From the IMG/VR virus record IMGVR_UViG_3300006753_000024, positions 1 through 34,574 of that record: a stretch of DNA of 34,574 bases, one strand, 5' to 3'. Of this stretch, positions 596 to 22,560 are shown piece after piece (position 1 is the first letter of the stretch; each line of letters starts with the position of its first letter). The DNA is from a virus (taxonomy: Duplodnaviria > Caudoviricetes). A program made the translations under genes and the position numbers. A model generated the notes under the pieces. It had not been told where the DNA came from and made no database searches. It saw only the letters and a program-made list of their open reading frames with translations.

Positions 596-2257
596 ATGCC
601 ATTTCCATTATTAGCAGCAGCAATTGGAGGAGCAGTCAAAGTCGGAGCTGCATATTTAAACAAACCCAAGAAATCAGATTATACAGCAGACACTACCTAT
701 TTGGATAAATATGTAGCAAGCTTACGCGGAAGACAGGCGGATAGAGAAGTTTATCATATGGCAATGCGCCCTCAGCTTCGCCAGATAGGAGCACAAGGTC
801 GCAGAATGCAGCGTCAGATTGGATATGATGTTGCAAAGAGCGGGCTTGAGGGATCAGGGATTGAGGCACAGCAAAGGCTTTCGGCTGGTGGAAAAGTATT
901 AGAGTCAATACAAACAGCTAGTGAAAAAGCAACTGCCCTGCAACTCCAAGAAAGCCGCCGGCTGGGCGAAGCAGTAGATCAAGCCACAATGCAGAGGGAG
1001 CAACAGATATCTGCCGCTAATAAAGCATATCAACAAGCTCAGAGCCAATGGAAAACTGGTATGTGGCAAGCTGGTCTGAGTGCTGTTGGAGGATTAGCTA
1101 TGGGTGGATTAGAGAAAATGAGTTTAGCGAAAACAGCAACAGAACAAACAGCTTTTGCTGAGGCAACGATGCCACCAACATTGTTTAAACAAATGACAGC
1201 GGAGGGAGTTACTCCAGCGGACATGTATAAGTATGCCCAAGAAAACTTTAGTGGGGAGGGGTTTAACCCGGAAATTCTAACTTCATTTGAGGCTTCTCGT
1301 GGCGGTGGTACAACGACAACAGGGGAGGCTGTCGTTAGAAAAGAACCTGTTATTGAAGAAACAGCCCTTCCAAAGACAAAAGCAGAAGGTATAAATATAA
1401 CTACAGCTGAACAGGCAAGAAAAGCAGGTCTTAAAGTCACAGAGCCAGTCCAATATAAAGATATAACTACAGCTGAACAAGCACGGGAAGCTGGATTAGA
1501 TGTTACCACAGCTGATAAGACAGACGCGGTTCAAAAAGCAGCCATAGATCAAGAACAACAGCAGAAAGCTGACGCAATAACAAGAGCTAAACAAGTTAAA
1601 CAGGAAAAACTAGAGGAAGAACTTGTGAAAAAGCAACTTGCCAAAGAAGCTAAAATAGAAAAAATAAGAAAGGATAGAGAAGAAGAAGCAAAAGCTTCAA
1701 GCGGACTAAACATAGAAGAAATGCAAGCTAAATGGAAAACAGATATAGAAACATATAAAGAGAAGGCTGCCGCTGATAAGGTTGCTGCTGAAGCAAAAGG
1801 AGCACAGGCTACTGCTAAAACGAACGTCATGTCTACTGATGACAAGAAGAAAGATGATAACAAATGGGCTAATTTGTTCAGCAAGGGTGATGTTAGTCTT
1901 GGAGATTTTAGTACAGAAGACTTAATTGAGATGTCTAAAGAGGAAGACCTACCATATTCACCCTCCTTTATACGGAGTTATATAGAACAATATCGGGCAG
2001 ACGATGACTCAGCCATTAAAAAGGCTGCTGCAGAGAAGGCTACTGCTAAAACGAACGTCATATCTACTAAAGACAAATCAGGTAAATGGAATCCCCCTAT
2101 AGAGGACATACTGGAAAAACAGGGAACTGGCTATGAAGCAGAAAAAATGTCGAATAAACTTAGTTTTGATGAGGCATTCGCTGCTGCGAGAAAGAAAGGA
2201 CTGGAGATATTCCAGTGGAGAAATAAATTGTACAGTACAGTAATTACTAAGGAATAA
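596..2257 (+). CDS. Internal virion / DNA ejection (pilot-like) protein
   Basis: 553 aa, GAGG RBS. Gly/Ala N-terminus (LLAAAIGGAVKVGAA), Gln/Ala coiled coils, Gly-rich hydrophobic patch, internal repeats ITTAEQAR(K/E)AGL x2 and ATAKTNVxST x2, C-terminal SFDEAFAAARKKG..FQWRNKLYST. Confidence 0.6.
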   Translation: MPFPLLAAAIGGAVKVGAAYLNKPKKSDYTADTTYLDKYVASLRGRQADREVYHMAMRPQLRQIGAQGRRMQRQIGYDVAKSGLEGSGIEAQQRLSAGGKVLESIQTASEKATALQLQESRRLGEAVDQATMQREQQISAANKAYQQAQSQWKTGMWQAGLSAVGGLAMGGLEKMSLAKTATEQTAFAEATMPPTLFKQMTAEGVTPADMYKYAQENFSGEGFNPEILTSFEASRGGGTTTTGEAVVRKEPVIEETALPKTKAEGINITTAEQARKAGLKVTEPVQYKDITTAEQAREAGLDVTTADKTDAVQKAAIDQEQQQKADAITRAKQVKQEKLEEELVKKQLAKEAKIEKIRKDREEEAKASSGLNIEEMQAKWKTDIETYKEKAAADKVAAEAKGAQATAKTNVMSTDDKKKDDNKWANLFSKGDVSLGDFSTEDLIEMSKEEDLPYSPSFIRSYIEQYRADDDSAIKKAAAEKATAKTNVISTKDKSGKWNPPIEDILEKQGTGYEAEKMSNKLSFDEAFAAARKKGLEIFQWRNKLYSTVITKE

Positions 2258-2260
2258 ACA

Positions 2261-3286
2261 ATGGCAGAACAAACAGCAGCACCACTTGAGGTAAAACCAC
2301 TTGAGCTTATCCCCGCTGAAGAGAGACAGGCAACAAAACCTGCAAGACCAGCTATAAATACCTCTGCGGATTACATAAGGGAATACAAAATTTTTGAAAA
2401 GAAATATAAAACCTATCAGAAGATTGAAGAAGAGGTTGGGACTACTGAGGCAAACGTGCTTTTTAAGGACGTAGAGGATGGGAAGATGTCATCGGCGCGG
2501 GCATTAAATCTGGCAAAATCCCGGGCAACCCCCTCCATGAGGCAGATGGCTAAAGATTATCATGATGGCATATCATTAGAAGATTTTTCAACAAGATATG
2601 GAGATGACTTTTTAAGTACAGCATCAGAGAAAGAGCTTACTAAGTGGTCATTTTACTATGGTAAGATTGTGAAAGATGAAGGGGACGCAGAAATTGCTGA
2701 AAGAAACAAAACGAAAGCAAAAGACAAAGAGGAAGAAGCCCAACGCAAAAAAGAAGATACTTTTACAGAAAACCGCGGTCAAGCATACTCCTTAATGGTC
2801 AAGCTTGGTGTAAAACTTAACAATCCTGTGAATAGAATAATGGATGCCACAAAACGAAAAGCGGTGCAGGATGAGTATGATAAGGCTTGGGGCTCATTAC
2901 AAACTTTTATAGATGACCCGTATGCAGGTGATTGGGAGAGCGCAATAGCACAGATATACGATGATGTTAACGCTTATGTTAACACTCTTGCTGGCTCTGC
3001 TCCAGAGGCGTTACATGATGCCATCGGTGTCTTAGACCGCGAAGCAGTAGAATATGATTTGGAGAAATATGAGAGCGGAGAAGAGGGTTATCCAAACATA
3101 GGAAAACTAAGAGACACTTATGCAAACCAGATGTTAAATCTTGTTAATGGGTTTATTCAGAGCGCACTTGCTACAGCTGACCCTCCGAATCCTGAAGCTG
3201 CTGTGAAGGAGATCAAGAGACAAACAAAAGATGGAAGAACAGCTATATTTAATGCAGATACAAAAGAATTTATAAGATATGAGTAA
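2261..3286 (+). CDS. Probable internal virion protein
   Basis: 341 aa helical, charged ORF with AAGGA RBS, between the pilot-like gene and the giant gene; stop overlaps next start (TAATG). Confidence 0.5.
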   Translation: MAEQTAAPLEVKPLELIPAEERQATKPARPAINTSADYIREYKIFEKKYKTYQKIEEEVGTTEANVLFKDVEDGKMSSARALNLAKSRATPSMRQMAKDYHDGISLEDFSTRYGDDFLSTASEKELTKWSFYYGKIVKDEGDAEIAERNKTKAKDKEEEAQRKKEDTFTENRGQAYSLMVKLGVKLNNPVNRIMDATKRKAVQDEYDKAWGSLQTFIDDPYAGDWESAIAQIYDDVNAYVNTLAGSAPEALHDAIGVLDREAVEYDLEKYESGEEGYPNIGKLRDTYANQMLNLVNGFIQSALATADPPNPEAAVKEIKRQTKDGRTAIFNADTKEFIRYE

Positions 3287-6200
3287 TGCCTGAAACCCAG
3301 CCAACATGGGAAGAGACCACAGATGTAGCACCAACATGGGATGAGACAACAGATGTCATCCCAACGTGGGATGAGACCACTGATATCTCAACCAGTCCTT
3401 TTCCAACAGAGCATCCAACTGTTGTAAATCCAGACGGATCAGTAAGCAATGTAAAAACTATAACCATGGAATCTGATGGGAAACACTATGTTCTCCCTTC
3501 AATGGTTGGTGGTAAACAGCTTTCTGACGAAGAGGCTTGGGAAGTAGCAGTAGGACAGGGGCTTGAGAAATATCCAGCATTCGATACTGCTGATGAAGCC
3601 TTAGAAGCATCTATACAGTTACACGACAAACAAGCACCCCCTCCCGTAGCAGAAGAACCAACATATCAAGACAGAGAGCTTGAAGAATTATATACAAGCT
3701 ATAACAAAGAGATTGATGAGGGGACTTTTGATCCTAAAAAATATTCAAATAGCGAACTAGAACAACTTAGACTTGAGATTTCAAAGGGCGTTGAAGCAGA
3801 AGCACCTAAGATAACATACCCAGAGTTTGAATCCAAGGTACCTCACCCGGGAGCCGCAGAGGTTCCTGATACTGAAAAAGGAATAGGAGAGTGGGGGACA
3901 AGGGAGGTGAAACGCCCCAGCAAACAAAAAGGTCGCGAAGATAAGTTCACTATTGAAAAAGAAGTTTATCCGCTTTTTGACCCAGAGGGTGCTGGTGTTG
4001 ACACATTTGTTCCAGAGGAGTTTCAGAAAGAAGAAAAGGTTTCCCCTTTAGGCTTCCGTGACTTAACCAACAAAGAGATGTCAAGATATGGCTTATCCGG
4101 GGGCTCCAGAGTGGTAACAGTAGGTAAGTCTTCTTCTTCTTATAAGACAATAGAGCGCAATCTAAATAACCTCGGGTTTGAAGTTATGCCATTAGGAGAG
4201 GGAAATCTTAAAAGGTATTTTGCAGTCCCAAGTGGTTCGAGGTTGGATTCCCGTGAACAAAGGGTATATAATGATATTGGCAAACGTCTACGGGACTTAG
4301 AGGACTCTCCCAGAACTAAAGGAGTAAGAAGCAGACTGAATGCAGCAGAGAAGAAGCTGAAAGAGGAAGGCTTCAATATGGATTTAAAGAAGGCTAAAAA
4401 GGAGGGAATTTCAAAAGCAGATGCTTTGAGATACTCTATGGTGTATGATGAATATAAAAAAGTGTTTAATGAATATAATAAAATTGCAGACGATGTCCAA
4501 AAATTTGGGAAACTGTCACAGAAAATATTAGACGAAGTAAACCAGATAAGGGATGAGGCTGGGATACGGGTAGAAGATTCTATGTTTATGGGTCAAACTA
4601 ATGAGGAGTTTATAGAAGACTGGAACACAAACCCCTTAAATAAAGACAACCAGATAGACGAAGCTGACCTAAATAAGATGAAACGTAATGAAATCACAAC
4701 AGGAAGTGTTGTGTTAGATGGTTTAATGTCTGCTTTTGCAAGTTTTGGTTCTCTCGCTAAAGTCCCCGGGATGACCGCGGAGATGCTCTATGACTTTGCA
4801 GCAATACCACAAAATAAAGCTACTGATATTCTACAAGACATGTTTGGTCTGGATATTGACATGAGAACAGACGCAACGGTCTTTAGAAAGGCTCTTAAAG
4901 AGTCTTTTGAAGCTCTGGGGACACAAGACCCATTCACATTACTTGACAATGTTGCACAAACTGGATTTGACTTACAGCAACAGTTTAACCCAACCGAAAG
5001 AATGAGAAGAAGTGGTTCATCTGCCGGAGAACTCTGGGCAATGCAAATGCTGATACTTATTCCACAGCTTGCAGAGGTTGTAGCTTTGACGTATGCAACA
5101 AGACACCCAAAGTATGCTCTTGGCGCGTTGTCTGGGCAAGTAACAGGGGCTAAGAAGATTCAGCTAGCAGGTGAAGGAGAACTATCCAATGTTGAGCAGA
5201 ACATTCTTGCTTTCGAAACTGGATTAGTTGAACTTGCCACAGAAACGCTTGGTACAGGAAAGACTCTTAAACTTATTCTTGGCAATAAAGTCGGGACTGG
5301 AGGATTTAAAGAGGGCTTTAGAAGCGTCTTTGGTATTATCCCGGGGGCTGTAAGAAGAGAAGCACTAGAGGAAGCTGGTGCTGGGATAGGAGAAGACATA
5401 GTGGACGCATGGGCAGGCAGGGCTGGAATGAACATGAGGATGTTGCCCGGTCATATGTTTGATAGGATTCCTGAGTATGCATATGAAGCTTCACTTGGCG
5501 GTGCTGCTGGTCTTTTATTAAGTGGTGGTTCAACCATTATCAATCTTCCTTTACAAAAAGAGATCGAAGCGGCAGAGGCAAAAATGAAAGCCCAGAAAGG
5601 TTTGATAATTGACCAAGCACTAAACCTTCCAAAAGCAAGTGAACTTGAAAAGATGTTCGTAGAAGCTGGGAAGGTAGAGCCTAAAATTAAAGAGGAAGCT
5701 CCACCACCTAAGAAGAAAGTTGCTAAACCCAAGCTAAAGCCCGGAGAAGCTATTCAGCTTTCTAAAAAACATAAAGATTTAACAGAAACAAAAGAACACA
5801 CTTTAAAAGCGTTAAAAACTCCAGAGCTAACCTTCCAACAAAGAGAACAGTATCAAACATCATTGCTTAAAATCGAAGAGCAATTACAGGAATTAGAGAC
5901 TCAAGCTGAGAAGAAAGGAGTCTCTCTGATTGAAAAGGACGTTACAAAAGGTCAACAGGCGATGGTTGATCTATTTACCTCGGTAGATATAGAAAAACAA
6001 CAGTCTTTTGAGCTTGTTGATGAATTTATAAGCCTTAGAGCCCGGGTAGAAGACCCTAAAGATGAGATGACAGAGGAACAGGCTCTTCGGGAGATAGCTG
6101 AGCACGGTCTTGAGGTGGACGAGCTTCCTGAAGGGCAAGACCCGCTGGAGGGATTCCTTACTACTGGTGAAAATGTAACAGATGAGGCTGGTATAGACCA

Positions 6201-9200
6201 GATTAAGATATTTCTTGGTTCTGATATACACGATGTGATCCACGAAAGGTCAGAATCTTGGTATAAGCGTCAAGTAGCTGTAGAGGGGAATTTTGAAACG
6301 CGCATAACAGAGCTGAGAGCCGATTATGAAAAGAGCACTGGTATTGTAAATGAAAAATTAGCTGACCAAGAATGGTTTGCTGACCTTGCTGCTGATTATG
6401 CAGCCGGAGCAATACCAAAGAGCAATATACATAAGACTTTATTAAAGATACTTGAAAGATTTAAGAAGTATGCTGATGCCTTATTAAGAGGCGGCAAAAG
6501 GATGAAGGCAGAGATTGCAGCTGGCAAGGTAAGTAAAGAGCTTCAGGATGCACTTAGCAGGTCAATAACAGAGCCTGTTGCTAAGATACCCAAGGTAAAG
6601 GGCAAGAAGAAGGGCTTTGCGTTAACAAAAGCACAAGGACAGGAAATAGCTGAAGTCCTCCAAAAAGCAAGGGATGAAGGAAGACTTGGTGGTATAAGGA
6701 TGAGAGATGTGATGGAAGAGATTACCCCTACCGAAGCACCACTAGACGAGACACCTATCCAAAAAGTTGATAGGCTAAGAAAAGAAGCTAATTTAGCTTT
6801 CCAAGTCAAGGAATCAATAAAAGAAGAAAAGGCACGATTTGAAGCTGAAAAGAAAGAACAGAGGAGAGTTGCCAGAAAAGAAAAGGCTGAACGCATAGCA
6901 AAGCTTAAAGAAGGCAGGAAGAAGGGCTTTGCAGTTAAGAAGGACGAAAGAAGTATTATTGATAGGTTTGTTAAGGGTGGAAACTTGATGGATATTGATA
7001 TAAATAAATATCCTTGGATAAGAGAAGCAATGGTAGCAGGGGAATGGGATTTCTTAGAGAATTTATATAAGAGGTCACAGATACCAAGGTTACGGGATGA
7101 ACAGGCAAAATTTCTTTTAGAGGTTAAAGAGGCTCAAGACTTTACAGATAATGAACGCGGAGAGGTTGGTATCTTATTTGATGAGGCAAGGGACAAAGGT
7201 CTTATTACTGAAGCAGAGGCAAGGGAAGTTGCAAGACTGATTAAAGGTAAGAAGCCATTAAAGAAATTACCTGAGATGTTCCAGCCCACATACGAAGAAA
7301 AACTGGAACAGTTGAAGGAGAAATATACTAAAATAGCAGAGTCATATCAAATTTCACATAGACCATCTAAAGAAGGATATCCACCAGCACATGATATGTG
7401 GGCAGACGAGCTTGGTGAGGGGGCAATTGCCCCAAAAGATGTATTGGATATGCCGCGTTATTATATAGGTTCTCATCCAGAAGTTAACCCAAAGGTATAT
7501 AATGAAACTTTAGAGGCAGTAAAATACATTAAAAGTATTCAAGGGAACCCAGACGCTGATATAACGGTGTATCGTACATCCCCAGTAGACGAATTAAATG
7601 ATGGTGACTGGGTGTCTTTATCTAAGGAATATGCGAGGGAAGAAGGTGTGCACCCCACTGATGAATCAAAAGATTTAGATGTATATGAGCATAGGGTTAA
7701 AGCAAAAGATATTCGTTGGGCTGGAGACGCGCTGGAGGAGTGGGGATTTTTCCCAGAAAAGCCTAAGAAGTCCTTTGCAATTAAAAGAATTGATACCCCA
7801 GAGTTTAAAAAGTGGTTTAAGAAATCTAAGGTGGTTGATGAGAAGGGTGAACCTATGGTGGTCTATCATGGGACAAATGCTGCTGATATTGTTGATTTAG
7901 GTGAGGATAAAGTTCCACAAAGAGTCCCCGTTGATTTTGAGGCTTTTGAAAAGGGAGACATAGGTTTCCATTTTGGAACAATAGAGCAGGCTAATAAAAG
8001 GACAAGTTCTTCTATCCCCTCTTTTCAGGAGATGGTTTACCTTGGTGCAAAACAGGGCGAATGGGCGGGTGACCCACAATTTGTAGGAAGAAGGGTTATG
8101 CCTGTATATCTTAGTATTCAAAATCCTTTAAGAATGGAAGACCCCATGATAGGTGGTGATTGGAAAAATGCTACAGCACTTATGGAACAATTAAAAAAGT
8201 TAGGGTTTAAGAATGTGCCAACTGGGATGTATACAGGTATGCATAAAAAACATCCTTCTCAACCTCTGTATTCATCCAAACGACATCTTAAAGATATTAA
8301 AAACTATATCATAAAACAAGGCTATGATGGTATTGTATATGCAAATAAATATGAATCACCCCTGAGAGATAAAGAAGGTAAGATTACAACCTCTTACGAG
8401 AAGGGCACAATAGATGTCCAAGATTCATACATTGCCTTTGAACCCACCCAAATAAAGTCAGTCTATAATGTGGGAGCTTTTGACCCGACTGATAAGCGCA
8501 TATCCTTTGCAGTTAAAAAGATTACAACCTTAGAAGCCACAAAGATTTTATCAAAGGAGTTTCGTGGAAAACGTAGAAAAATGAAAACTTCTACACCAGC
8601 ACAGCTTTCAAGGTATGAGGATGCCATAATGGAATATGGAAGATATCTATTTACACATCCTAAGTTTACCGAACAAGATTTCGCAAAAGCAGCTACTTGG
8701 TGGGGTGATGACGTATTTGCTGTTAAACAAAGGCTTCAGGTGGAGCTTCCCACTCTTATGGATGCCAATGATTCTGCTATGTTTGATATATTTCTTGCTT
8801 TTACGTCCCAAGGGTCAAAGCTTGACGGAAATCTTGATGGAGCAGTGTACTTAATGCAGGAATTTAAAGCAAACCAAGCTGAAGGTAGGAATGACTTTCC
8901 CTATTACAAGCCAAAGGTTTTTGTTAAAGACACAAAGAAGACATTCCCGAAGCACCCAGAAGGAGGGGTTCTCCGACCTTTAGACATTGACCATCAGGGG
9001 GGAGTTAAATATCAACTTGAAAAGCTGAAAAGATTACTTGATTACTTTAATTGGGATGCTAAGGCAGTAAAAGGCTGGCTTATGCAGGAAACAACGGTAG
9101 GGGAACTTAGAAAGTTTATATATGAGCTTGGATATAGTAAGACTCAGGCTGAAAGTTGGTCAAAGGACATTACAGGCTCGTCAAGGATGACAAACAGCAC

Positions 9201-12174
9201 ACATAACGTAGTGATGTTTGGTCAGAAGATTGGTGCTATGGTTGGAGCCCTGTACGGGATAAACACGGACGTTGTTTTAGACAGGTGGATGGCTCGTATA
9301 GAAATGATTGCCTCTGGAGATATAAGAACAGCGATAAGTAAGAAAACTGGTGAACTCATTTTGTATGATGCCCCAATACAAAAAGGCGCGCTTGTGAATG
9401 CAATTAGTAGAGCCGGGGAAGAGTTTGGTCTAACACCAATAGAAAGCCAAGCCGTTTTCTGGGTCTTTGGGCGTGAATTATTTTATGAGTTAGGGATAAC
9501 AAGGGAATCAAGTTATTTTTCAGAATCAATGGACAAAAGGAGTTTAAAATATGAACAATTCAACACCGCCCCCGAGAATACTGGAGATATTAGCGAATCT
9601 CGAAGAAACAGGGCGTTTGCCAGAAAAACAGTCTTGGCAAAAAGCTATTGGGAAGGCTTTGACCAGTACAGTGAACCGTCTAAAGAAGAGTACAGCCCGC
9701 CACCCCCACGAGGAAAAGGCAAGAAAACTTTCGCAGTTAAAAAGCGTACAGTCGAAGATGAAAAAGCTATCAGAAAAAGAAAAGCCGAAGAAGCAGAAAT
9801 AAGAAACCGTAGCGCAAAGGATAAGGCTGATCTTGTACCAGACTTTGTTCGGAAAAGAAGAGCTTATATTGCCAATAAAGCTTTAGATATGAATTACTTT
9901 ATAGATACATTAACAAGAAGATACAAGCTTACGAAGTTAGAACGTGAGCTAATACCATTCCTCATAGAAGAGACTGATGTTCCTGATGCCCTTAATAGAC
10001 CAAAACTACAGAGGCTTCAGGCTGAGATTGCTGCATCTGAAGAAGACAGCGCAAGGTTAGCAGCAGCAGTTGCAGAGGTCAATAAAGAGTTTGCGAAAAT
10101 ATGGGATACAAGCGTTGAAGCATTCCCTGAGCTGGATGGCAAGGATTTAGATAATTATGTAACTCATATATGGGACATTCCCCGTAATAAACAGTCAATT
10201 GTCAGGAGATGGTTTACCAAGGATAAGTTCCTTAATAAGAGATATATAGAAACATTAAAAGAGGGGATAGAAGAACTTGAGCTAAAGCCAAAGACCACTG
10301 ATATAGCAGAGATTCTAAGGATTAGAAGTAGTACAGCTCATAAGGCTATTGCTAATAGGCAGTTTGTAGAGGATATACTGGCTCTGGAGCAGGATGAATT
10401 TAAGCTTATCAGTAGAAGTAGGGTAGAAGGGTTTGTACAAATCTACCACGCTGCACTTAAAATTCCCGGGCTAGACTCACATTATTATGTTCATCCAGAC
10501 CTTGAGAAGCCGTTAAGGGTTATTTTTGAAACGCTTGATACGATGGATATCGGGAAAGCTTATGACACTATTGCTGGTTTGATGAAAAAGACACAACTTA
10601 GTCTTTCTCTCTTTCACCATTTTGCACTGTCAGAAACACTCATAGCCTTGGTTGGTCTTCCCCGTTCTGTTAAAATCTTTGCAGAGCTATTTAAGGGTAA
10701 TCCAGCTATGAGAAATATAGCTATTGCCCGGGACGCGGTTGCTCATAATATGCAATTAGGTGCTTCTACTGATATCCCAATAGCAAGAATACAGCAGATG
10801 CTTAAAATGTGGTCTACTAAAACCCATGGGCTCGTAATGCCCCTTGAAGTATTAAACAGGGGATGGGATGCTGCCCTGTGGGATTATCTACACGATGGAT
10901 TTAAACTATTTGGATATGAGCATCTGGTAAGTAAACTTGACCCAGAATCAAAGACCTACGAGCAAGAGAAGAACGAAATAGGTACGCTAATGAATGATGT
11001 CTTTGGTGGACAAAATCTTGATAATTTGATGGTTAACCCAAGAACAATAAAATGGCTCATGCGTGGGTTCTTATCACCAGACTGGCAGATATCAACAATA
11101 AGGCAGGCTCTTTCGGTCACAGGATTTGGTGCAGCTCACAAAGAGACAATTGCTTTACGCCGGAAGGTGGGTAGACACTTCTGGTACAGGGCTGCTGCTT
11201 ATTTTTGGGTAGGTATGAACCTATTAAATATGTCTTTTCGTAAAAAGGACGAAGAAGAATATCCACAGTATTACAAAGGCAAGCTTATCGGTGAAATGCA
11301 TTGGTGGGATTATACCATGTATGGGAATGCCAGAGGGAGTAAGACCAAGCTGTTTATTGGTAGGAATAAGGATAAGACTGAAAGTTATTTACGATGGGGC
11401 AAGCAGTTTAAAGAGTTACCAGAACTTGTTCTTGATGAGACTGGATTTAACCCGTGGCAGATTTGGAAAAAAATATCCGGTAAGTTTAATCCCCTCCTTC
11501 AGTTGGCAGCTTACACTACTGGACACACATGGGGCGGATACAAAATTTGGAGCATGAGAGACCAAGAGGGCTGGGATAGAGTTGGTGCTTTTGTTAAAGA
11601 AATTTTAAAAGCACCGCTCCCGTTTAGTCTTAAAAGTTTAGCAGAAGAAGAACGTGAGTTTAGACTCACAGATTTATTTATGCCTCGAAGCAAGGGAATG
11701 ACAAGGTATAAGGCAAAAAGATTGCTCAGACTTGCCATGCTAAGAGGGGATGAAAATCTTTACAGAGAAGTATTTTCAGATATATGGCAAAATAAGATGG
11801 ACGCTGGGAAATTAGCTGACTCGGTAATAGGAGGGATAAGGACTGACTATAAGCGGGAGGTCGGAGCTTATGATGATGAAATTGAAGAATTGAAAGAGAG
11901 TTTAAAGAAAGCCAAAACCAAAAAAATAAGAACAGACCTTAAAGATAGACTTAGAAAAATAAAAGTAAACGCAAGGGATGCACAGAAGTCTATAAAAGAC
12001 ATAGACGATAAATGGGTAAAATATATCAAGCTTACAAAAGAATATGGTTTTTATGAATATGAAGAAAGAGAGCTCTCTCCAGAAGAACAAGAGCTTCAAG
12101 ACAAGCTTAATGCAGAAGCAAAAAGAAGGGCAGAGTTTATTCCAAAGAGAAGATCAATAGGGGTAAAGAAATAA
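3286..12174 (+). CDS. Large polyvalent (injected) protein: degenerate zincin, two ART-like domains, HhH glycosylase-like domain, C-terminal LPD-type region
   Basis: 2962 aa. HERSE..EWFAD (6241-6384); ITVYR..LNDGDWVSLSKEYA..EWG (7357-7755); FKKWF..VVDEKGEPMVVYHGT..GFHFG..MPVYLSIQNP..GYDGIVY..YIAFEPTQIKS (7790-8500, ART-PolyVal-like); TSQG..GQKIG..DRWMAR..QAVFW (8800-9465). Confidence 0.75.
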   Translation: MPETQPTWEETTDVAPTWDETTDVIPTWDETTDISTSPFPTEHPTVVNPDGSVSNVKTITMESDGKHYVLPSMVGGKQLSDEEAWEVAVGQGLEKYPAFDTADEALEASIQLHDKQAPPPVAEEPTYQDRELEELYTSYNKEIDEGTFDPKKYSNSELEQLRLEISKGVEAEAPKITYPEFESKVPHPGAAEVPDTEKGIGEWGTREVKRPSKQKGREDKFTIEKEVYPLFDPEGAGVDTFVPEEFQKEEKVSPLGFRDLTNKEMSRYGLSGGSRVVTVGKSSSSYKTIERNLNNLGFEVMPLGEGNLKRYFAVPSGSRLDSREQRVYNDIGKRLRDLEDSPRTKGVRSRLNAAEKKLKEEGFNMDLKKAKKEGISKADALRYSMVYDEYKKVFNEYNKIADDVQKFGKLSQKILDEVNQIRDEAGIRVEDSMFMGQTNEEFIEDWNTNPLNKDNQIDEADLNKMKRNEITTGSVVLDGLMSAFASFGSLAKVPGMTAEMLYDFAAIPQNKATDILQDMFGLDIDMRTDATVFRKALKESFEALGTQDPFTLLDNVAQTGFDLQQQFNPTERMRRSGSSAGELWAMQMLILIPQLAEVVALTYATRHPKYALGALSGQVTGAKKIQLAGEGELSNVEQNILAFETGLVELATETLGTGKTLKLILGNKVGTGGFKEGFRSVFGIIPGAVRREALEEAGAGIGEDIVDAWAGRAGMNMRMLPGHMFDRIPEYAYEASLGGAAGLLLSGGSTIINLPLQKEIEAAEAKMKAQKGLIIDQALNLPKASELEKMFVEAGKVEPKIKEEAPPPKKKVAKPKLKPGEAIQLSKKHKDLTETKEHTLKALKTPELTFQQREQYQTSLLKIEEQLQELETQAEKKGVSLIEKDVTKGQQAMVDLFTSVDIEKQQSFELVDEFISLRARVEDPKDEMTEEQALREIAEHGLEVDELPEGQDPLEGFLTTGENVTDEAGIDQIKIFLGSDIHDVIHERSESWYKRQVAVEGNFETRITELRADYEKSTGIVNEKLADQEWFADLAADYAAGAIPKSNIHKTLLKILERFKKYADALLRGGKRMKAEIAAGKVSKELQDALSRSITEPVAKIPKVKGKKKGFALTKAQGQEIAEVLQKARDEGRLGGIRMRDVMEEITPTEAPLDETPIQKVDRLRKEANLAFQVKESIKEEKARFEAEKKEQRRVARKEKAERIAKLKEGRKKGFAVKKDERSIIDRFVKGGNLMDIDINKYPWIREAMVAGEWDFLENLYKRSQIPRLRDEQAKFLLEVKEAQDFTDNERGEVGILFDEARDKGLITEAEAREVARLIKGKKPLKKLPEMFQPTYEEKLEQLKEKYTKIAESYQISHRPSKEGYPPAHDMWADELGEGAIAPKDVLDMPRYYIGSHPEVNPKVYNETLEAVKYIKSIQGNPDADITVYRTSPVDELNDGDWVSLSKEYAREEGVHPTDESKDLDVYEHRVKAKDIRWAGDALEEWGFFPEKPKKSFAIKRIDTPEFKKWFKKSKVVDEKGEPMVVYHGTNAADIVDLGEDKVPQRVPVDFEAFEKGDIGFHFGTIEQANKRTSSSIPSFQEMVYLGAKQGEWAGDPQFVGRRVMPVYLSIQNPLRMEDPMIGGDWKNATALMEQLKKLGFKNVPTGMYTGMHKKHPSQPLYSSKRHLKDIKNYIIKQGYDGIVYANKYESPLRDKEGKITTSYEKGTIDVQDSYIAFEPTQIKSVYNVGAFDPTDKRISFAVKKITTLEATKILSKEFRGKRRKMKTSTPAQLSRYEDAIMEYGRYLFTHPKFTEQDFAKAATWWGDDVFAVKQRLQVELPTLMDANDSAMFDIFLAFTSQGSKLDGNLDGAVYLMQEFKANQAEGRNDFPYYKPKVFVKDTKKTFPKHPEGGVLRPLDIDHQGGVKYQLEKLKRLLDYFNWDAKAVKGWLMQETTVGELRKFIYELGYSKTQAESWSKDITGSSRMTNSTHNVVMFGQKIGAMVGALYGINTDVVLDRWMARIEMIASGDIRTAISKKTGELILYDAPIQKGALVNAISRAGEEFGLTPIESQAVFWVFGRELFYELGITRESSYFSESMDKRSLKYEQFNTAPENTGDISESRRNRAFARKTVLAKSYWEGFDQYSEPSKEEYSPPPPRGKGKKTFAVKKRTVEDEKAIRKRKAEEAEIRNRSAKDKADLVPDFVRKRRAYIANKALDMNYFIDTLTRRYKLTKLERELIPFLIEETDVPDALNRPKLQRLQAEIAASEEDSARLAAAVAEVNKEFAKIWDTSVEAFPELDGKDLDNYVTHIWDIPRNKQSIVRRWFTKDKFLNKRYIETLKEGIEELELKPKTTDIAEILRIRSSTAHKAIANRQFVEDILALEQDEFKLISRSRVEGFVQIYHAALKIPGLDSHYYVHPDLEKPLRVIFETLDTMDIGKAYDTIAGLMKKTQLSLSLFHHFALSETLIALVGLPRSVKIFAELFKGNPAMRNIAIARDAVAHNMQLGASTDIPIARIQQMLKMWSTKTHGLVMPLEVLNRGWDAALWDYLHDGFKLFGYEHLVSKLDPESKTYEQEKNEIGTLMNDVFGGQNLDNLMVNPRTIKWLMRGFLSPDWQISTIRQALSVTGFGAAHKETIALRRKVGRHFWYRAAAYFWVGMNLLNMSFRKKDEEEYPQYYKGKLIGEMHWWDYTMYGNARGSKTKLFIGRNKDKTESYLRWGKQFKELPELVLDETGFNPWQIWKKISGKFNPLLQLAAYTTGHTWGGYKIWSMRDQEGWDRVGAFVKEILKAPLPFSLKSLAEEEREFRLTDLFMPRSKGMTRYKAKRLLRLAMLRGDENLYREVFSDIWQNKMDAGKLADSVIGGIRTDYKREVGAYDDEIEELKESLKKAKTKKIRTDLKDRLRKIKVNARDAQKSIKDIDDKWVKYIKLTKEYGFYEYEERELSPEEQELQDKLNAEAKRRAEFIPKRRSIGVKK
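3298..3384 (+). repeat. Three in-frame 30-bp repeats encoding PTW(E/D)ETTD
   Basis: CCAACRTGGGAWGAGACMACWGAT x3 at 30-bp spacing. Confidence 0.9.
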
Positions 12175-16855: not shown

Positions 16856-16911
16856 GTGCTTTCCTTTCTCGTTTAGTTTGCGACACTCATCCCAATTATA
16901 TATATAACAAA

Positions 16912-16949
16912 TAAAAAAAAATAGAAAACCCCAGCAAAATGCCGGGGCT
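16912..16949 (-). terminator. Rho-independent terminator
   Basis: Minus strand AGCCCCGGC-ATTTT-GCTGGGGTT followed by TTCTATTTTTTTTT. Confidence 0.85.
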
Positions 16950-17001
16950 CTCAGCCTCACTATGGTGGCGGTTTCATACCAGTCTCCTTCCAGACTAAAG
17001 T

Positions 17002-17210
17002 ATTGTGATGGTAGGACTTGAACCAAAAGAGCCGTCACTCAACCTACAGGGGTGAAGTTAACAGGAAATGGTTTCTGTTATTTTACCACCCGACCTACAA
17101 TGTAAGACCTCGCTCATCCATTCGGACATCGTCCGGTCACAGGGAGTAACCAGTCCCCTCTTCAGTAGTGCCTTATCTCCTTTCCAAGAGATTATTCAGC
17201 CACATCACAA
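17002..17210 (-). ncRNA. Expanded tRNA-like RNA (~205 nt)
   Basis: Acceptor-like TTGTGATG/CATCACAA; tRNA-like TGGCTGAAT...TAAGGCA D-arm; T-stem GTAGG/CCTAC with GGTTCAAGTCC; insertions in all arms; region has no convincing ORF. Confidence 0.65.
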
Positions 17211-17225
17211 ATTGTAAAAAAACGT
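17210..17225 (-). promoter_or_regulatory. boxA-like motif, copy 2
   Basis: ACGTTTTTTTACAATT, 14/16 identical to 21970-21985; preceded by hairpin ACTTGGAG/CTCCAAGT. Confidence 0.4.
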
Positions 17226-17265
17226 TGATCAAAATTATAACCAGACTTGGAGCTCTCCAAGTTTG

Positions 17266-17463
17266 TCAACGTTGACGTTTTTCTTTTATCTTCCTGATGT
17301 GGGCGGAATCTTGCCCGGAATCTATAGCATCCAGTATTTTAGCTATAAATTTGATTGGCAGAGTCTTGTACTTGCCATGTATACGCAAATGAGCCCGTAT
17401 TTTACCCCTTAAAGCCCGAAACACGTCCTCATCCACTATGAGTCTGAGTTTGTGTTGTTTCAT
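17266..17463 (-). CDS. Hypothetical basic protein
   Basis: 65 aa ORF directly after tRNA-like element E1. Confidence 0.6.
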   Translation of the reverse strand: MKQHKLRLIVDEDVFRALRGKIRAHLRIHGKYKTLPIKFIAKILDAIDSGQDSAHIRKIKEKRQR

Positions 17464-17480: not shown

Positions 17481-17528
17481 TGAACCCGGGGCTGGAATCG
17501 AACCAGCCCCTTGAACCATTCGGGTTTA
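17481..17528 (-). ncRNA. Mini-tRNA-like element E1
   Basis: AACCCG-AATGGTTCAAG-GGGCTGG-TTCGATT-CCAGCCC-CGGGTT-CA; begins at the upstream stop codon. Confidence 0.8.
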
Positions 17529-18319: not shown

Positions 18320-18367
18320 TGACCCACGGGCTGGAATCGAACCAGCCCGGGAACCGTTCGTGGGTTA
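18320..18367 (-). ncRNA. Mini-tRNA-like element E2
   Basis: ACCCACG-AACGGTTCCCG-GGCTGG-TTCGATT-CCAGCC-CGTGGGT-C, then hairpin AATGGTC/GACCATT. Confidence 0.8.
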
Positions 18368-18817: not shown

Positions 18818-18864
18818 AGCGTGTTTTCCTTTCATCTTGTTTTGATTTAATAGCATCATGCTAT

Positions 18865-18908
18865 TGACCCATCCCGGGGAGTTGAACCCCGGGTGCGACC
18901 ATCATGGG
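18865..18908 (-). ncRNA. Mini-tRNA-like element E3
   Basis: CCCAT-GATGGTCGCA-CCCGGGG-TTCAACT-CCCCGGG-ATGGG-TC, then hairpin AATAGCA/TGCTATT. Confidence 0.8.
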
Positions 18909-18920
18909 ATATTATATATA

Positions 18921-19602: not shown

Positions 19603-19654
19603 TGCTCCACGTTCAGGAGTCGAACCTGATATATATATATAACCATTCGTGGAG
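19603..19654 (-). ncRNA. Mini-tRNA-like element E4
   Basis: CTCCACG-AATGGT(TA)n-TCAGG-TTCGACT-CCTGA-A-CGTGGAG-C, then hairpin AACAGC/GCTGTT. Confidence 0.8.
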
Positions 19655-20231: not shown

Positions 20232-20276
20232 TGCCCTATGGACGGGAATCGAACCCATCTACATCCAACCATAGGG
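20232..20276 (-). ncRNA. Mini-tRNA-like element E5
   Basis: CCCTATG-GTTGGATGTA-GATGGG-TTCGATT-CCCGTC-CATAGGG-C, then hairpin AACAGC/GCTGTT. Confidence 0.8.
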
Positions 20277-20641: not shown

Positions 20642-20688
20642 TGACCTGCGGGGGAGATTCGAACTCCCCTATCCAGCCATTCGCAGGT
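20642..20688 (-). ncRNA. Mini-tRNA-like element E6
   Basis: ACCTGCG-AATGGCTGGATA-GGGGAG-TTCGAAT-CTCCCC-CGCAGGT-C, then hairpin AACGGTA/TGCCGTT. Confidence 0.8.
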
Positions 20689-20698
20689 TATATATATA

Positions 20699-21657: not shown

Positions 21658-21707
21658 TGCTCCCCGGGATGGATTCGAACCATCCGATGGTCTGACCGTC
21701 CGGAGAG
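21658..21707 (-). ncRNA. Mini-tRNA-like element E7
   Basis: CTCTCCG-GACGGTCAGACCATC-GGATGG-TTCGAAT-CCATCC-CGGGGAG-CA, then hairpin GGATGAC/GTCATCC. Confidence 0.8.
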
Positions 21708-22008: not shown

Positions 22009-22444
22009 AGACCAAGGCTATTCCTACATATATTTACAAATATGTTGTACCGAACAGAGACTGTGATGGATACCGGGATACCATCTGTTATTGTACACAC
22101 ATGAAGGGAGAGATGTATAGCTGTGACAAGAGGATGGGAGAGTGAGCCCAACTACTGACACATGCTGACCTGACCATGTATGTGGGCTGTTTGTCGTCAA
22201 GGATACAACACAACTGTCATTGAGTTGTGCTCGATGGATCGCTCTAACTCATTGTATATCTGCACATGCGGACATGTGGTGTGTGCATGGTGGGTGTGTG
22301 GTCGGTCACATCCGCATGGGTGCCCCCACCCAGTCCCTTGGAGCCACCCCCCTCCTCTATTGTATATCACGCACTCACACCAAACGGGATTTCACTTTTT
22401 CTCTATCTCTATAGGTATATTTGATGTCCATCTGTCCATATTAA

Positions 22445-22560
22445 GCCCCATGCTAGCCCCATGGATGGGTCATGCTAGGGTCATGTATGGGTCATACTAG
22501 GGTCATGCATGGGTCATGCTAGCCCCATAGATGGGTCATAGATGGGTCATAGATGGGTCT
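22445..22560 (+). repeat. 11-bp tandem repeats (10 full plus 1 partial), probable replication iterons
   Basis: Units G(GGT/CCC)CAT-NNNN in exact 11-bp register, followed by (AAAGAY)x4 and an AT-rich tract at 22586-22720. Confidence 0.8.

What the first reader, a model, noticed from the sequence alone, without database searches (positions are those of the whole stretch)
17002..17210. ~205-nt tRNA-shaped RNA with insertions in every arm, at the end of the array
Seen, minus strand: 8-bp terminal stem TTGTGATG/CATCACAA; a Ser/Leu-type D-arm frame (TG-GCTGAAT...AAGGC-A) with hairpin ATCTCTT-GGAA-AGGAGAT inserted; CTAC/GTAG enclosing a ~70-nt branched domain (GGGA/TCCC, GACC/GGTC, GGAC/GTCC) where the anticodon loop should be; a long variable arm (GGGTG..TAACAG/CTGTTA..CACCC); and T-stem GTAGG/CCTAC with a 20-nt insertion bounded by GGTT repeats before TTCAAGT. 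A terminator follows. There is no G3-U70 pair or tag ORF, so it is not a standard tmRNA. Inference: a new tRNA-derived ncRNA, a multi-intron tRNA, or a tRNA scaffold that presents functional loops.
Basis: partly seen in the sequence, partly recalled or inferred. Interest (0 to 1): 0.85.

Follow-up and report, generated by a model that had tools for sequence, protein, structure and literature searches.

The report
tRNA-shaped manA RNA of marine phage
This marine phage carries a conserved ~208-base non-coding sequence laid out on a transfer-RNA frame, with extra hairpins in place of the decoding loop; it is a divergent relative of the cage-forming manA RNA, likely made as a free RNA whose matching loops are predicted to clip copies together, and it suggests that manA RNAs are built from tRNA.

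Summary
The element is real: 17003-17210, minus strand. Two homologues from other contigs (about 79% identical) keep the fold, and 12 of 64 pairs change on both sides.

It is not a spliced tRNA or a tmRNA: no U33/anticodon loop, no G18G19, no CCA, no G3-U70. It is a divergent manA RNA (Rfam RF01745, 30.9 bits, below the 55.2 cut-off), a family shown by cryo-EM to form pentamer-based cages through kissing loops.

Three points are new in what I could read. (1) The manA core sits in exact tRNA register. (2) This three-member branch keeps a full 7-bp acceptor-like stem and a UUCAAG T-loop remnant. (3) The GACG hairpin that usually precedes manA lies inside the T-loop here.

The RNA is followed by a terminator; in the one relative that has the upstream array, it lies apart from it on the other strand. 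So it is likely a stand-alone RNA, not a riboswitch. Loop L8 (AACCA) matches L9 (UGGUU), the contact that builds manA pentamers. Expression and assembly are untested. The scan has met manA variants often on other DNA.

The parts
17003..17210 (-). manA-type RNA on a tRNA-like frame (whole element, 208 nt)
   Evidence: Rfam RF01745 30.9 bits, E 2e-4 in the all-family scan, 4.8e-8 for one genome; homologues L001 and L111; ends match the limits of conservation in relatives' contigs
17203..17210 (-). acceptor-like stem, 5' strand (pairs with 17003-17010); 7 bp conserved, 8 bp here
   Evidence: A-U to G-C change on both sides in L111
17003..17010 (-). acceptor-like stem, 3' strand, directly after the T-stem; no encoded CCA
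17170..17202 (-). U8-G9 and D-arm frame: 3 pairs plus G13.A22, then A14, A15, A21; no G18G19
   Evidence: sequence; invariant columns; pairs vary on both sides in the published seed rows, read by eye
17175..17192 (-). hairpin P3 inserted in the D-loop, loop GGAA
   Evidence: U-A to C-G change in L001
17095..17168 (-). anticodon-stem equivalent P4 closing a branched domain (no anticodon loop)
   Evidence: the 3' strand is one column off in the MAFFT alignment; by eye the stems are CUAC/GUAG, CUGGC/GUCAG and CUUGA/UCAAG
17141..17158 (-). hairpin P5, loop with conserved GGUUA (manA L5 equivalent)
   Evidence: 2 of 5 pairs compensatory
17105..17139 (-). arm P6 with the AUG-stem-loop-UGAG module (17113-17129)
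   Evidence: 2 of 4 inner pairs compensatory; module in 8 of 24 clusters; similar modules in published seed rows
17050..17091 (-). variable-arm equivalent P8; loop L8 holds AACCA at 17069-17073
   Evidence: outer helix: 2 of 6 pairs changed on both sides, 2 on one side
17011..17047 (-). T-arm equivalent with a 27-nt loop L9 (U54...A58 kept); UGGUU at 17021-17025 matches L8
17029..17040 (-). GACG-tetraloop hairpin inside the T-loop
   Evidence: present in 3 of 3 subfamily members, closing pair U.G / U-A / C-G
16960..16991 (-). ribosome-binding site (16984-16991) and micro-ORF MKPPP-stop (16960-16977) in the 3' trailer
   Evidence: SD plus AUG AAA kept in 3 of 3; MKPP-stop in L001, a 24-codon frame in L111
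16924..16952 (-). intrinsic terminator-like hairpin followed by a U-tract
   Evidence: a terminator-like hairpin starts 64-66 nt after the T-stem in 3 of 3
17234..17276 (-). possible promoter region: 12-bp palindrome holding TTGACA (17265-17276) and TATAAT (17234-17239), spacing non-standard
   Evidence: the palindrome or a near-palindrome aligns in 3 of 3; promoter function is an inference, and the consensus scan finds no excess of sites

Best explanation
The stretch is a divergent manA-family sequence whose conserved core has the layout of a long-variable-arm tRNA; it is likely transcribed as a free non-coding RNA that cannot decode and is predicted to join copies of itself through complementary loops.

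Shown here: the fold, the manA core, the tRNA-register spacing, the terminator, independence from the upstream array, and L8-L9 complementarity.

Inferred steps: (1) It is transcribed from its own promoter, or by read-through from the early genes, and stops at the terminator. (2) The stacked acceptor-like and T stems (7-8 + 5 bp) fold into a tRNA-like L-shape; host RNase P and 3' nucleases would trim the U-rich leader and the trailer and leave a stable ~205-nt RNA. (3) The parts of a tRNA that meet other molecules (D-loop, anticodon loop, variable-arm tip, T-loop) carry hairpins that act as joints: L8 AACCA of one copy would pair with L9 UGGUU of the next, as in the L8-L9' contact of manA pentamers seen by cryo-EM; L5 GGUUA would pair with the strand that replaces P7; the GACG loop would give a self-to-self contact. 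(4) The product would be a ring or closed shell made during infection, an accessory factor that most likely stores, shields or sponges RNA or RNA-binding proteins, as proposed for the ROOL and GOLLD cages.

Odds by step: manA kinship about 0.9, free RNA about 0.8, oligomer about 0.6, the shielding or sponge role about 0.3.
For: manA kinship: the Rfam match covers model positions 1-192 with the invariant GUGRCUGAAUAA..UAAGG and UGURGGU..CCYAC blocks. Of 20 loci scanned from the same DNA pattern, 9 hold a manA match over the cut-off and 5 a weaker one. The P6 module also occurs in published seed rows.

tRNA register: the terminal stem starts directly after the T-stem and ends two bases before the D-stem, with at least 4 bp in 13 of 16 single-unit clusters against 0 of 16 for each one-sided shift of 1-3 nt. 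A58 is present in 25 of 25 clusters and Y60 in 23 of 25; neither was in the patterns that fetched nearly all of these loci. After cutting out the inserts and shortening the variable arm in silico, ARAGORN of 16 constructs tRNA at default and 8 of 16 at 95% (hand-made, descriptive only).

Free RNA: a terminator-like hairpin follows within about 70 nt in 3 of 3; downstream genes are convergent in L001/L122 and L111; a terminator-like hairpin lies upstream in L111; the RNA is on the strand opposite to the array in L122. S-CREM1 manA sits between tRNA-Leu and tRNA-Asn.

Joints: AACCA/UGGUU is kept in 3 of 3. Across clusters, each RNA's own L8 matches its L9 better than permuted partners (Watson-Crick run 3.39 against 2.86, p 0.0015, n 23). 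The preprint reports L5-L7', L8-L9' and L3-L8' kissing in manA cages. The loop numbering is checked on the two NZ_ seed rows, which show L3/L8 complementarity and a GNRA L6, as reported for the Photobacterium RNA (by eye). A GACG hairpin lies in the 5' flank of 6 of 24 clusters and in the T-loop of 3 of 24, never in both. GACG tetraloops take part in retroviral RNA dimerisation (PMC516450).
Against: The score (30.9 bits) is below the Rfam cut-off (55.2), and two manA parts are missing: the 5' hairpin and hairpin P7.

The subfamily has only 3 distinct sequences, and the L8-L9 pairs never vary among them, so they say nothing by covariation. L8 AACCA could equally pair with L5 UGGUU inside one molecule (5, 5 and 4 pairs). 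The family-wide L8-L9 signal weakens when close relatives are merged (70% clusters, n 14: p 0.026 Watson-Crick, 0.068 with G-U), and the automatic choice of L8 picked the wrong hairpin in several cases. The L5 partner strand has a U.U mismatch in the window (by eye).

The cages were made in vitro at about 3 mg/mL with 10 mM Mg, and the word 'in vivo' does not occur in the preprint's main text. The canonical elbow (G18, G19) is absent, so recognition by RNase P is uncertain. A ribosome-binding site and start codon follow the RNA in 3 of 3, which keeps a cis role open. The single-sequence fold is not clearly better than shuffles. U48, A15 and the 5' T-stem were in my search patterns and U54 in my filter, so their conservation is not independent.
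Confidence: 0.55

Rival explanations
1. Monomeric tRNA mimic or decoy: the RNA folds like a tRNA, with the loop contacts formed inside one molecule, and likely titrates a host tRNA-handling protein (an anticodon nuclease of an anti-phage system, a synthetase, EF-Tu or a processing enzyme).
For: A full 7-bp acceptor-like stem stacked on a 5-bp T-stem in 3 of 3. The T-arm without the insert matches ordinary phage tRNA T-arms. The gene sits in an early region with an ArdC-type anti-restriction gene. Weinberg et al. drew the L5-L7 pairing as a possible pseudoknot.
Against: The features such proteins read (anticodon loop, G18G19, CCA end) are absent or replaced by large inserts. Five of five manA RNAs studied by cryo-EM oligomerised.
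Confidence: 0.2
2. Cis-acting leader: the structure would control translation of the micro-ORF MKPPP, or read-through at the terminator into the integrase-like and recombination genes, as a riboswitch or a proline/EF-P-sensing attenuator.
For: SD + AUG AAA is kept 33-43 nt after the T-stem in 3 of 3 while the flanks diverge. Loose ends of two relatives' contigs also show an SD-like run just after the RNA. manA was described as a 5'-UTR riboswitch candidate (PMC2864571). Pro-Pro-stop stalls ribosomes (recalled).
Against: In a fold of 16910-17235 the terminator pairs at about 1.0 and no antiterminator appears. In L001 and L111 the genes beyond the terminator point the other way. The peptide is not conserved (MKPPP, MKPP, a 24-codon frame). 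None of the 28 other MKPP-start loci has such an RNA within 400 nt.
Confidence: 0.15
3. Non-functional relic of a tRNA gene or a passively carried insertion.
For: Weak folding z-score. No match in 0 of 5 related phage records searched, three of them at least 90% complete.
Against: 12-14 compensatory pairs among three sequences that are 74-79% identical. Conservation stops sharply at the ends. 67 distinct cores of the wider family were found.
Confidence: 0.05
4. Multi-intron tRNA: the three inserts would be spliced out to give a working tRNA.
For: Removing the 20-nt T-loop insert leaves a perfect T-arm, and trimmed constructs can score as tRNA.
Against: No construct with the full variable arm scored at default or 95% (0 of 8), and the calls give different anticodons. 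The bases after P4 are G-A, G-A and U-A, with no U33. G18G19 cannot be rebuilt. The inserts are too short for group I or II introns and show no bulge-helix-bulge by eye. T-loops range from 7 to 27 nt across the family, as expected for loops, not introns.
Confidence: 0.02

Closest known systems
manA RNA motif (Rfam RF01745; Weinberg et al. 2010, PMC2864571; cryo-EM in bioRxiv 10.64898/2026.07.01.735769)
   Same: Same core blocks and helix order: terminal stem, short stem with an inserted hairpin, branched domain, long arm, final hairpin. GG-rich L5, L8-L9 complementarity, about 200 nt, marine phage host genome.
   Different: Scores below the cut-off. Terminal stem 7-8 bp against 5 in the model. 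No 5' hairpin; its GACG loop sits inside the T-loop. No P7, and ACCA is in L8. T-loop 27 nt, ending in UUCAAG. Followed by a micro-ORF and a terminator, not a metabolic gene. The carrier is a small non-T4-like phage (portal, terminase, RecT/RecE, integrase-like).
Class II tRNA (Ser/Leu/Tyr; Rfam RF00005)
   Same: 7-bp acceptor; U8-N9; 3-bp D-stem with G13.A22 (compare the tRNA-Tyr beside manA in L027); A14, A15.U48, A21; one base at 26; 4-5-bp stem at 27-31; long variable arm; G53-C61, U54, A58, U60.
   Different: No anticodon loop, U33, G18G19 or CCA; large inserts in the D-, anticodon and T-loops. Not found by ARAGORN or by the Rfam tRNA model.
ROOL and GOLLD phage RNAs (PMC12286853)
   Same: Phage-encoded, often near tRNAs, form RNA-only cages, function unknown. 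The ROOL 3' part carries a GUGGCUGAAUA..GUARGGC block like the manA D-arm block.
   Different: Three to four times longer, with a different overall structure; no Rfam match to this element.
tmRNA and bacterial Y RNA (YrlA)
   Same: Non-decoding RNAs with a tRNA-like domain (general knowledge).
   Different: No G3-U70, tag frame or CCA. No Rfam match at E up to 1. No Ro60 gene among 31 window proteins scanned with PHROGs.

Membership tests
manA RNA (RF01745) | Score at or above the Rfam gathering threshold (55.2 bits) | tested here: not met
   30.9 bits; L001 copy 34.9 bits
manA RNA (RF01745) | Conserved GUGRCUGAAUAA-hairpin-UAAGG block and UGURGGU-loop-CCYAC block closed by a terminal stem | tested here: met
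manA RNA (RF01745) | Multi-branched domain with three hairpins and an L5 (GGUGGU) - L7 (ACCA) pairing | tested here: not met
   Two arms only, P7 absent. L5 GGUUA matches the strand that replaces P7 in L001 (5 bp) and L111 (4 bp) but only 3 of 4 in the window (by eye)
manA RNA (RF01745) | 5' hairpin, often with a GACG loop | tested here: not met
   Absent from the 5' flank in 3 of 3; a GACG hairpin lies in the T-loop instead
manA RNA (RF01745) | L8-L9 loop complementarity | tested here: met
   AACCA/UGGUU in 3 of 3, invariant; family-wide p 0.0015 to 0.068 depending on clustering
manA RNA (RF01745) | Position in the 5' UTR of a metabolic gene | tested here: not met
   A micro-ORF and a terminator follow; genes beyond are convergent in 2 of 3
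manA RNA (RF01745) | Assembly into pentamer-based closed oligomers | not testable with these tools
   Needs SEC or cryo-EM; no RNA complex prediction is offered
tRNA (class II) | Cloverleaf spacing: acceptor stacked on the T-stem, two bases to the D-stem, one base to the anticodon stem | tested here: met
tRNA (class II) | 7-nt anticodon loop with U33 | tested here: not met
   A 66-nt domain instead; no Y32-U33 in 3 of 3
tRNA (class II) | G18G19 in the D-loop and a 7-nt T-loop (elbow) | tested here: not met
   D-loop is AAUAA-hairpin-UA; T-loop is 27 nt
tRNA (class II) | CCA end and aminoacylation | tested here: inconclusive
   No encoded CCA in 3 of 3; addition by the host enzyme and charging cannot be tested here
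tmRNA | G3-U70 alanine identity pair, CCA end and internal tag frame | tested here: not met
   Position 3:70 is U-A in the 7-bp register (G-C in the 8-bp register); ARAGORN finds no tmRNA
Intron-containing tRNA | Self-splicing intron core or bulge-helix-bulge at the junctions, and a conserved spliced product | tested here: not met
   Inserts of 16-66 nt; ARAGORN with introns finds nothing on the intact region at 90% or above; trimmed constructs give mixed anticodons
Bacterial Y RNA (YrlA) | Ro60-binding stem and a neighbouring Ro60 gene | tested here: inconclusive
   No Rfam match; no Ro60 family among 31 proteins scanned, but the record is about 40% complete

The most novel reading that the evidence does not exclude
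manA RNAs are tRNAs turned into building tiles. A class II tRNA kept its L-shaped core and host processing, while its D-, anticodon, variable and T-loops were replaced by kissing-loop joints, so that phages build RNA-only cages from tRNA-shaped subunits. This branch is the least-changed link (full acceptor stem, UUCAAG T-loop remnant). Its GACG hairpin is a movable two-fold joint that has jumped from the 5' end into the T-loop, so it should build a shell of a different geometry from the known manA cages. The same D-arm block in ROOL would extend the tRNA origin to a second cage-forming RNA.
Probability: 0.3. Interest if true: 0.8.

Novelty: new variant of a known kind. Interest (0 to 1): 0.5.

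Why it matters
manA has been an orphan riboswitch candidate since 2010 and was recently shown to form RNA-only cages, including a 60-mer; neither its origin nor its job is known. This variant makes both testable. It maps manA onto tRNA numbering, which predicts which host enzymes should handle it and that the solved manA monomers should superimpose on a class II tRNA. It stands before a terminator, which argues against the riboswitch reading. Its joints are rearranged (P7 lost, ACCA in L8, GACG hairpin in L9), a natural experiment on how loop position sets cage geometry, which also bears on RNA nanostructure design. The kind of RNA is known, and the scan has seen many manA variants, so the interest is moderate.

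Tried and rejected
Expression: no RNA holder listed among 22 runs, so transcription was not tested. A second read-laying on the L001 copy gave no result, so further natural variants of the subfamily were not seen.

Homologue searches that added no subfamily member: blastn against GenBank phages (18 short matches, none covering more than 14%); a T-loop-insert pattern in viral contigs (L001's contig only); loci around 14 RecE-like relatives and 10 relatives of the small early gene (L001's contig only); 29 MKPP-start loci (L001's only). Of 10 matches in prokaryote genomes, nine failed my filters and L112, which passed, looks like a chance match in coding sequence.

Rows dropped before counts: L045 and L082 (the window's own record); L005 and L013 (ROOL end plus a tRNA-Tyr); 11 matches without a T-arm under my filter; L112 from then on; L009 and L112 from the L8-L9 test (loop too short); 8 tandem units from the acceptor count. 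The first two extraction scripts mis-called L001 or missed canonical rows and were replaced.

A survey of D-stem types in real tRNAs parsed only 11 of 32 and showed no G13.A22 case, so it is inconclusive; the class II comparison rests on the L027 tRNA-Tyr read by eye. One joint skipping 17029-17167 in a DNA contig of X4 has unknown sequence between its sides and is read as another family member, not as splicing. ARAGORN at 85% spurious genes in the window, so relaxed calls were ignored. The promoter scan found no excess over shuffles (18 against 19.1). The weak Rfam matches rnk_pseudo and SIB (E 0.16, 0.26) were treated as chance. No covariance model was built, because the middle of the wide alignment is unreliable.

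Literature: searches listed no paper that calls manA tRNA-like, judged from listings and the passages read. The preprint's main text has 0 occurrences of 'tRNA', 'T-loop' and 'GACG'. Its figures and supplements, and Additional files 1, 3 and 7 of PMC2864571, could not be read and may say so.

Full report
Setting. The window is a 34.6-kb virus record, about 40% complete by CheckV. It has terminase, portal and major head genes, RecE/RecT, RusA, DnaC-like, integrase-like and ArdC-type genes. Runs that hold the region are labelled marine, marine plankton or hydrothermal vent metagenomes. Contigs of X4 and X9, from two studies, carry 16924-17350 and 16924-17327 without a differing letter, so the element is not an assembly artefact. 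The host is unknown.

Observation. All listed features are present. ARAGORN finds nothing. The single-sequence fold is weak (z -1.47; 12 of 200 shuffles as good). A pattern scan found one homologue in viral contigs (L001) and the metagenome scan a second (L111). They are 79%, 79% and 74% identical pairwise. On these three, 12 of 64 hand-drawn pairs change on both sides and 95.8% of cells pair, against 42-48% for slid controls. RNAalifold, unguided, gives the same cloverleaf with 14 of 60 compensatory pairs. Three related sequences are few, and the shuffle control does not correct for kinship. Contigs of relatives match about 17004-17211 and then run on unlike.

Identity. Rfam's best match is manA (RF01745) over the whole model, at 30.9 bits against a cut-off of 55.2 (E 4.8e-8 for one genome). 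Looser patterns gave 23 and 20 viral, 65 metagenome and 10 genome stretches. Of the first 20 scanned, 9 hold a manA match above the cut-off and 5 a match below it, so the pattern picks up a continuum. After the rows listed under Tried and rejected were dropped, 67 distinct cores in 25 clusters remained; one cluster (L112) was later dropped as chance. The published seed (36 rows read) already holds P6 modules like the window's and the second units of tandem copies. By formal score and by three structural features (5' hairpin, P7, UTR position) the element fails membership. By core and ancestry it is a manA relative. I file it as a new variant, not a plain member.

The tRNA frame. The terminal stem ends two bases before the D-like stem and resumes directly after the T-like stem. 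This register gives at least 4 pairs in 13 of 16 single-unit clusters, against 0 of 16 for every one-sided shift of 1-3 nt. A58 is kept in 25 of 25 clusters and Y60 in 23 of 25, while the loop varies from 7 to 27 nt. In the seed rows the three D-stem pairs vary on both sides and G13.A22 is nearly constant (by eye). This is the pattern of the tRNA-Tyr next to manA in L027. A15, U48 and U54 were imposed by my patterns or filter and do not count. In silico removal of the inserts plus shortening of the variable arm gives ARAGORN calls in 3 of 16 constructs at default and 8 of 16 at 95%, none with the full arm, and with mixed anticodons. The features needed to decode or be charged are absent: U33 and the anticodon loop, G18G19, CCA, G3-U70. 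So the skeleton is tRNA-like and the product is not a tRNA. Homology is the simplest reading; convergence is not excluded without a 3D comparison.

What is special in this branch. The acceptor-like stem has the full 7 bp (5 in the Rfam model) and the T-loop ends in UUCAAG. P7 is missing and the ACCA element is in the variable-arm loop. A GACG-tetraloop hairpin lies in the 5' flank in 6 of 24 clusters and is the first loop in 17 of 36 seed rows read; another 7 rows have self-complementary GAUC or AGCU loops.

Context. A terminator-like hairpin starts 64-66 nt after the T-stem in 3 of 3. In L001/L122 the RNA is on the strand opposite to the early array and faces a convergent gene; L111 has a terminator-like hairpin upstream and convergent genes downstream. 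Its place at the end of the array is thus peculiar to this window. Five related phage records, three at least 90% complete, show no manA match at E 0.01, while the same search rings in the window's own record, so the RNA looks accessory. An SD and AUG AAA are conserved in the trailer (MKPPP-stop, MKPP-stop, a 24-codon frame). This keeps a cis role open, but the terminator forms regardless in a fold of 16910-17235.

Mechanism. The preprint 10.64898/2026.07.01.735769 reports that five manA RNAs form octamers, decamers or a 60-mer, with pentamers held by L5-L7', L8-L9' or L3-L8' kissing loops. I could not see its figures. My loop numbering is inferred and checked on the two NZ_ seed rows, which have the L3/L8 match and the GNRA L6 that the text gives for the Photobacterium RNA. 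In the window L8 AACCA matches L9 UGGUU, invariant in 3 of 3. Across the family each RNA's own L8-L9 pair matches better than permuted pairs (p 0.0015 for 23 clusters at 85%; p 0.026 and 0.068 for 14 clusters at 70%), which is moderate support. L8 could also pair with L5, and any of these contacts could be intramolecular. GACG loops help dimerise retroviral RNAs (PMC516450), so a self-to-self joint is plausible but untested. I commit to a free, probably trimmed, tRNA-shaped RNA that oligomerises (0.55), ahead of a monomeric decoy (0.2), a cis regulator (0.15), a relic (0.05) and a spliced tRNA (0.02).

Papers seen. 10.64898/2026.07.01.735769: passages, section 8 and part 2 of 5 of the text; no figures or supplements. 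PMC2864571: passages, supplement 5 parts 119-120, supplement 6 passages; Additional files 1, 3 and 7 were unreadable and may discuss tRNA likeness. PMC9964418, PMC7779021, PMC12286853, PMC516450 and 10.1101/2020.02.04.933952: passages only. tRNA numbering, tmRNA and Y RNA features, and Pro-Pro-stop stalling are recalled knowledge.

Earlier scan notes. 330 findings hold the words manA, RNA and RF01745, several of them proposing stand-alone or self-joining manA variants. None matched this sequence, and none held all the words of my tRNA-frame or GACG queries. They are unchecked leads, and my reading was set down before I saw them.

Verdict. Observation confirmed, interpretation partly supported, new variant of a known kind, interest 0.5.

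Noticed in passing
window, minus strand: 21660-21707, about 20642-20690, 20234-20276, 19605-19654, about 18864-18911, 18322-18365, 17483-17526: Seven mini-tRNA elements (acceptor-like stem, short linker often with AAUGG, intact T-arm, CA), most followed by a small hairpin, an SD and a gene. Six similar elements lie in the early region of L122 and four T-arms each in L170 and L171. They are likely RNase P/Z-type processing or stabilising signals for early mRNAs; a five-term paper search found nothing.
   Followed up: partly
window 16960-16977 (-); L001 about 3232-3246 (+); L122 about 7633-7644 (+): Polyproline micro-ORFs with good SD sites: MKPPP-stop and MKPP-stop after the RNA, and MPPP-stop just before a T-arm element in the L122 array. 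Three more MKPP-stop frames were among 29 viral loci. Possibly ribosome-stalling or EF-P-sensing elements.
   Followed up: partly
L004, L012, L014, L016, L033, L052, L084 and others: Tandem manA cores in which one GGGAU/AUCCC stem closes two units; Rfam scores only the second unit, taking the first unit's T-arm as its 5' hairpin. The scan noted this before (e1-8342218).
   Followed up: partly
L005 1592-2184 (-), L013 969-1561 (+): The 3' part of ROOL RNA carries GUGGCUGAAUA-helix-GUARGGC, the same block as the manA D-arm frame; a shared module or shared origin.
   Followed up: no
window 17265-17276 and 17240-17261 (-): A 12-bp palindrome containing TTGACA about 60 nt before the RNA, aligned in all three subfamily members, with a second inverted repeat before the TATAAT; possibly a bidirectional promoter or an operator.
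   Followed up: no
L120 about 1950-2145 (-); L065 about 1150-1345 (-); L091 about 1170-1360 (+): Possible more distant manA-like RNAs that failed my T-arm filter: one in an Acholeplasmataceae genome bin, one in a tRNA cluster, one preceded by a T-arm-like hairpin.
   Followed up: no
window 3286-12174 (+): A 2962-aa protein with an ART-PolyVal domain (PF18760), a phage polyvalent protein; L122 has a 2391-aa counterpart on the opposite strand relative to its early genes.
   Followed up: no
window 22438-22559: An 11-bp tandem repeat in an A+T-rich gap between divergent gene blocks, possibly a replication origin or packaging site; L001 has a similar short repeat about 120 nt after its RNA.
   Followed up: no
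window 17175-17192 (-): The 3' strand of the D-loop hairpin reads like a Shine-Dalgarno sequence (AGGAGA; AGGAGG in L001) and its 5' strand like an anti-SD, close to the trailer's own SD; may be chance.
   Followed up: no
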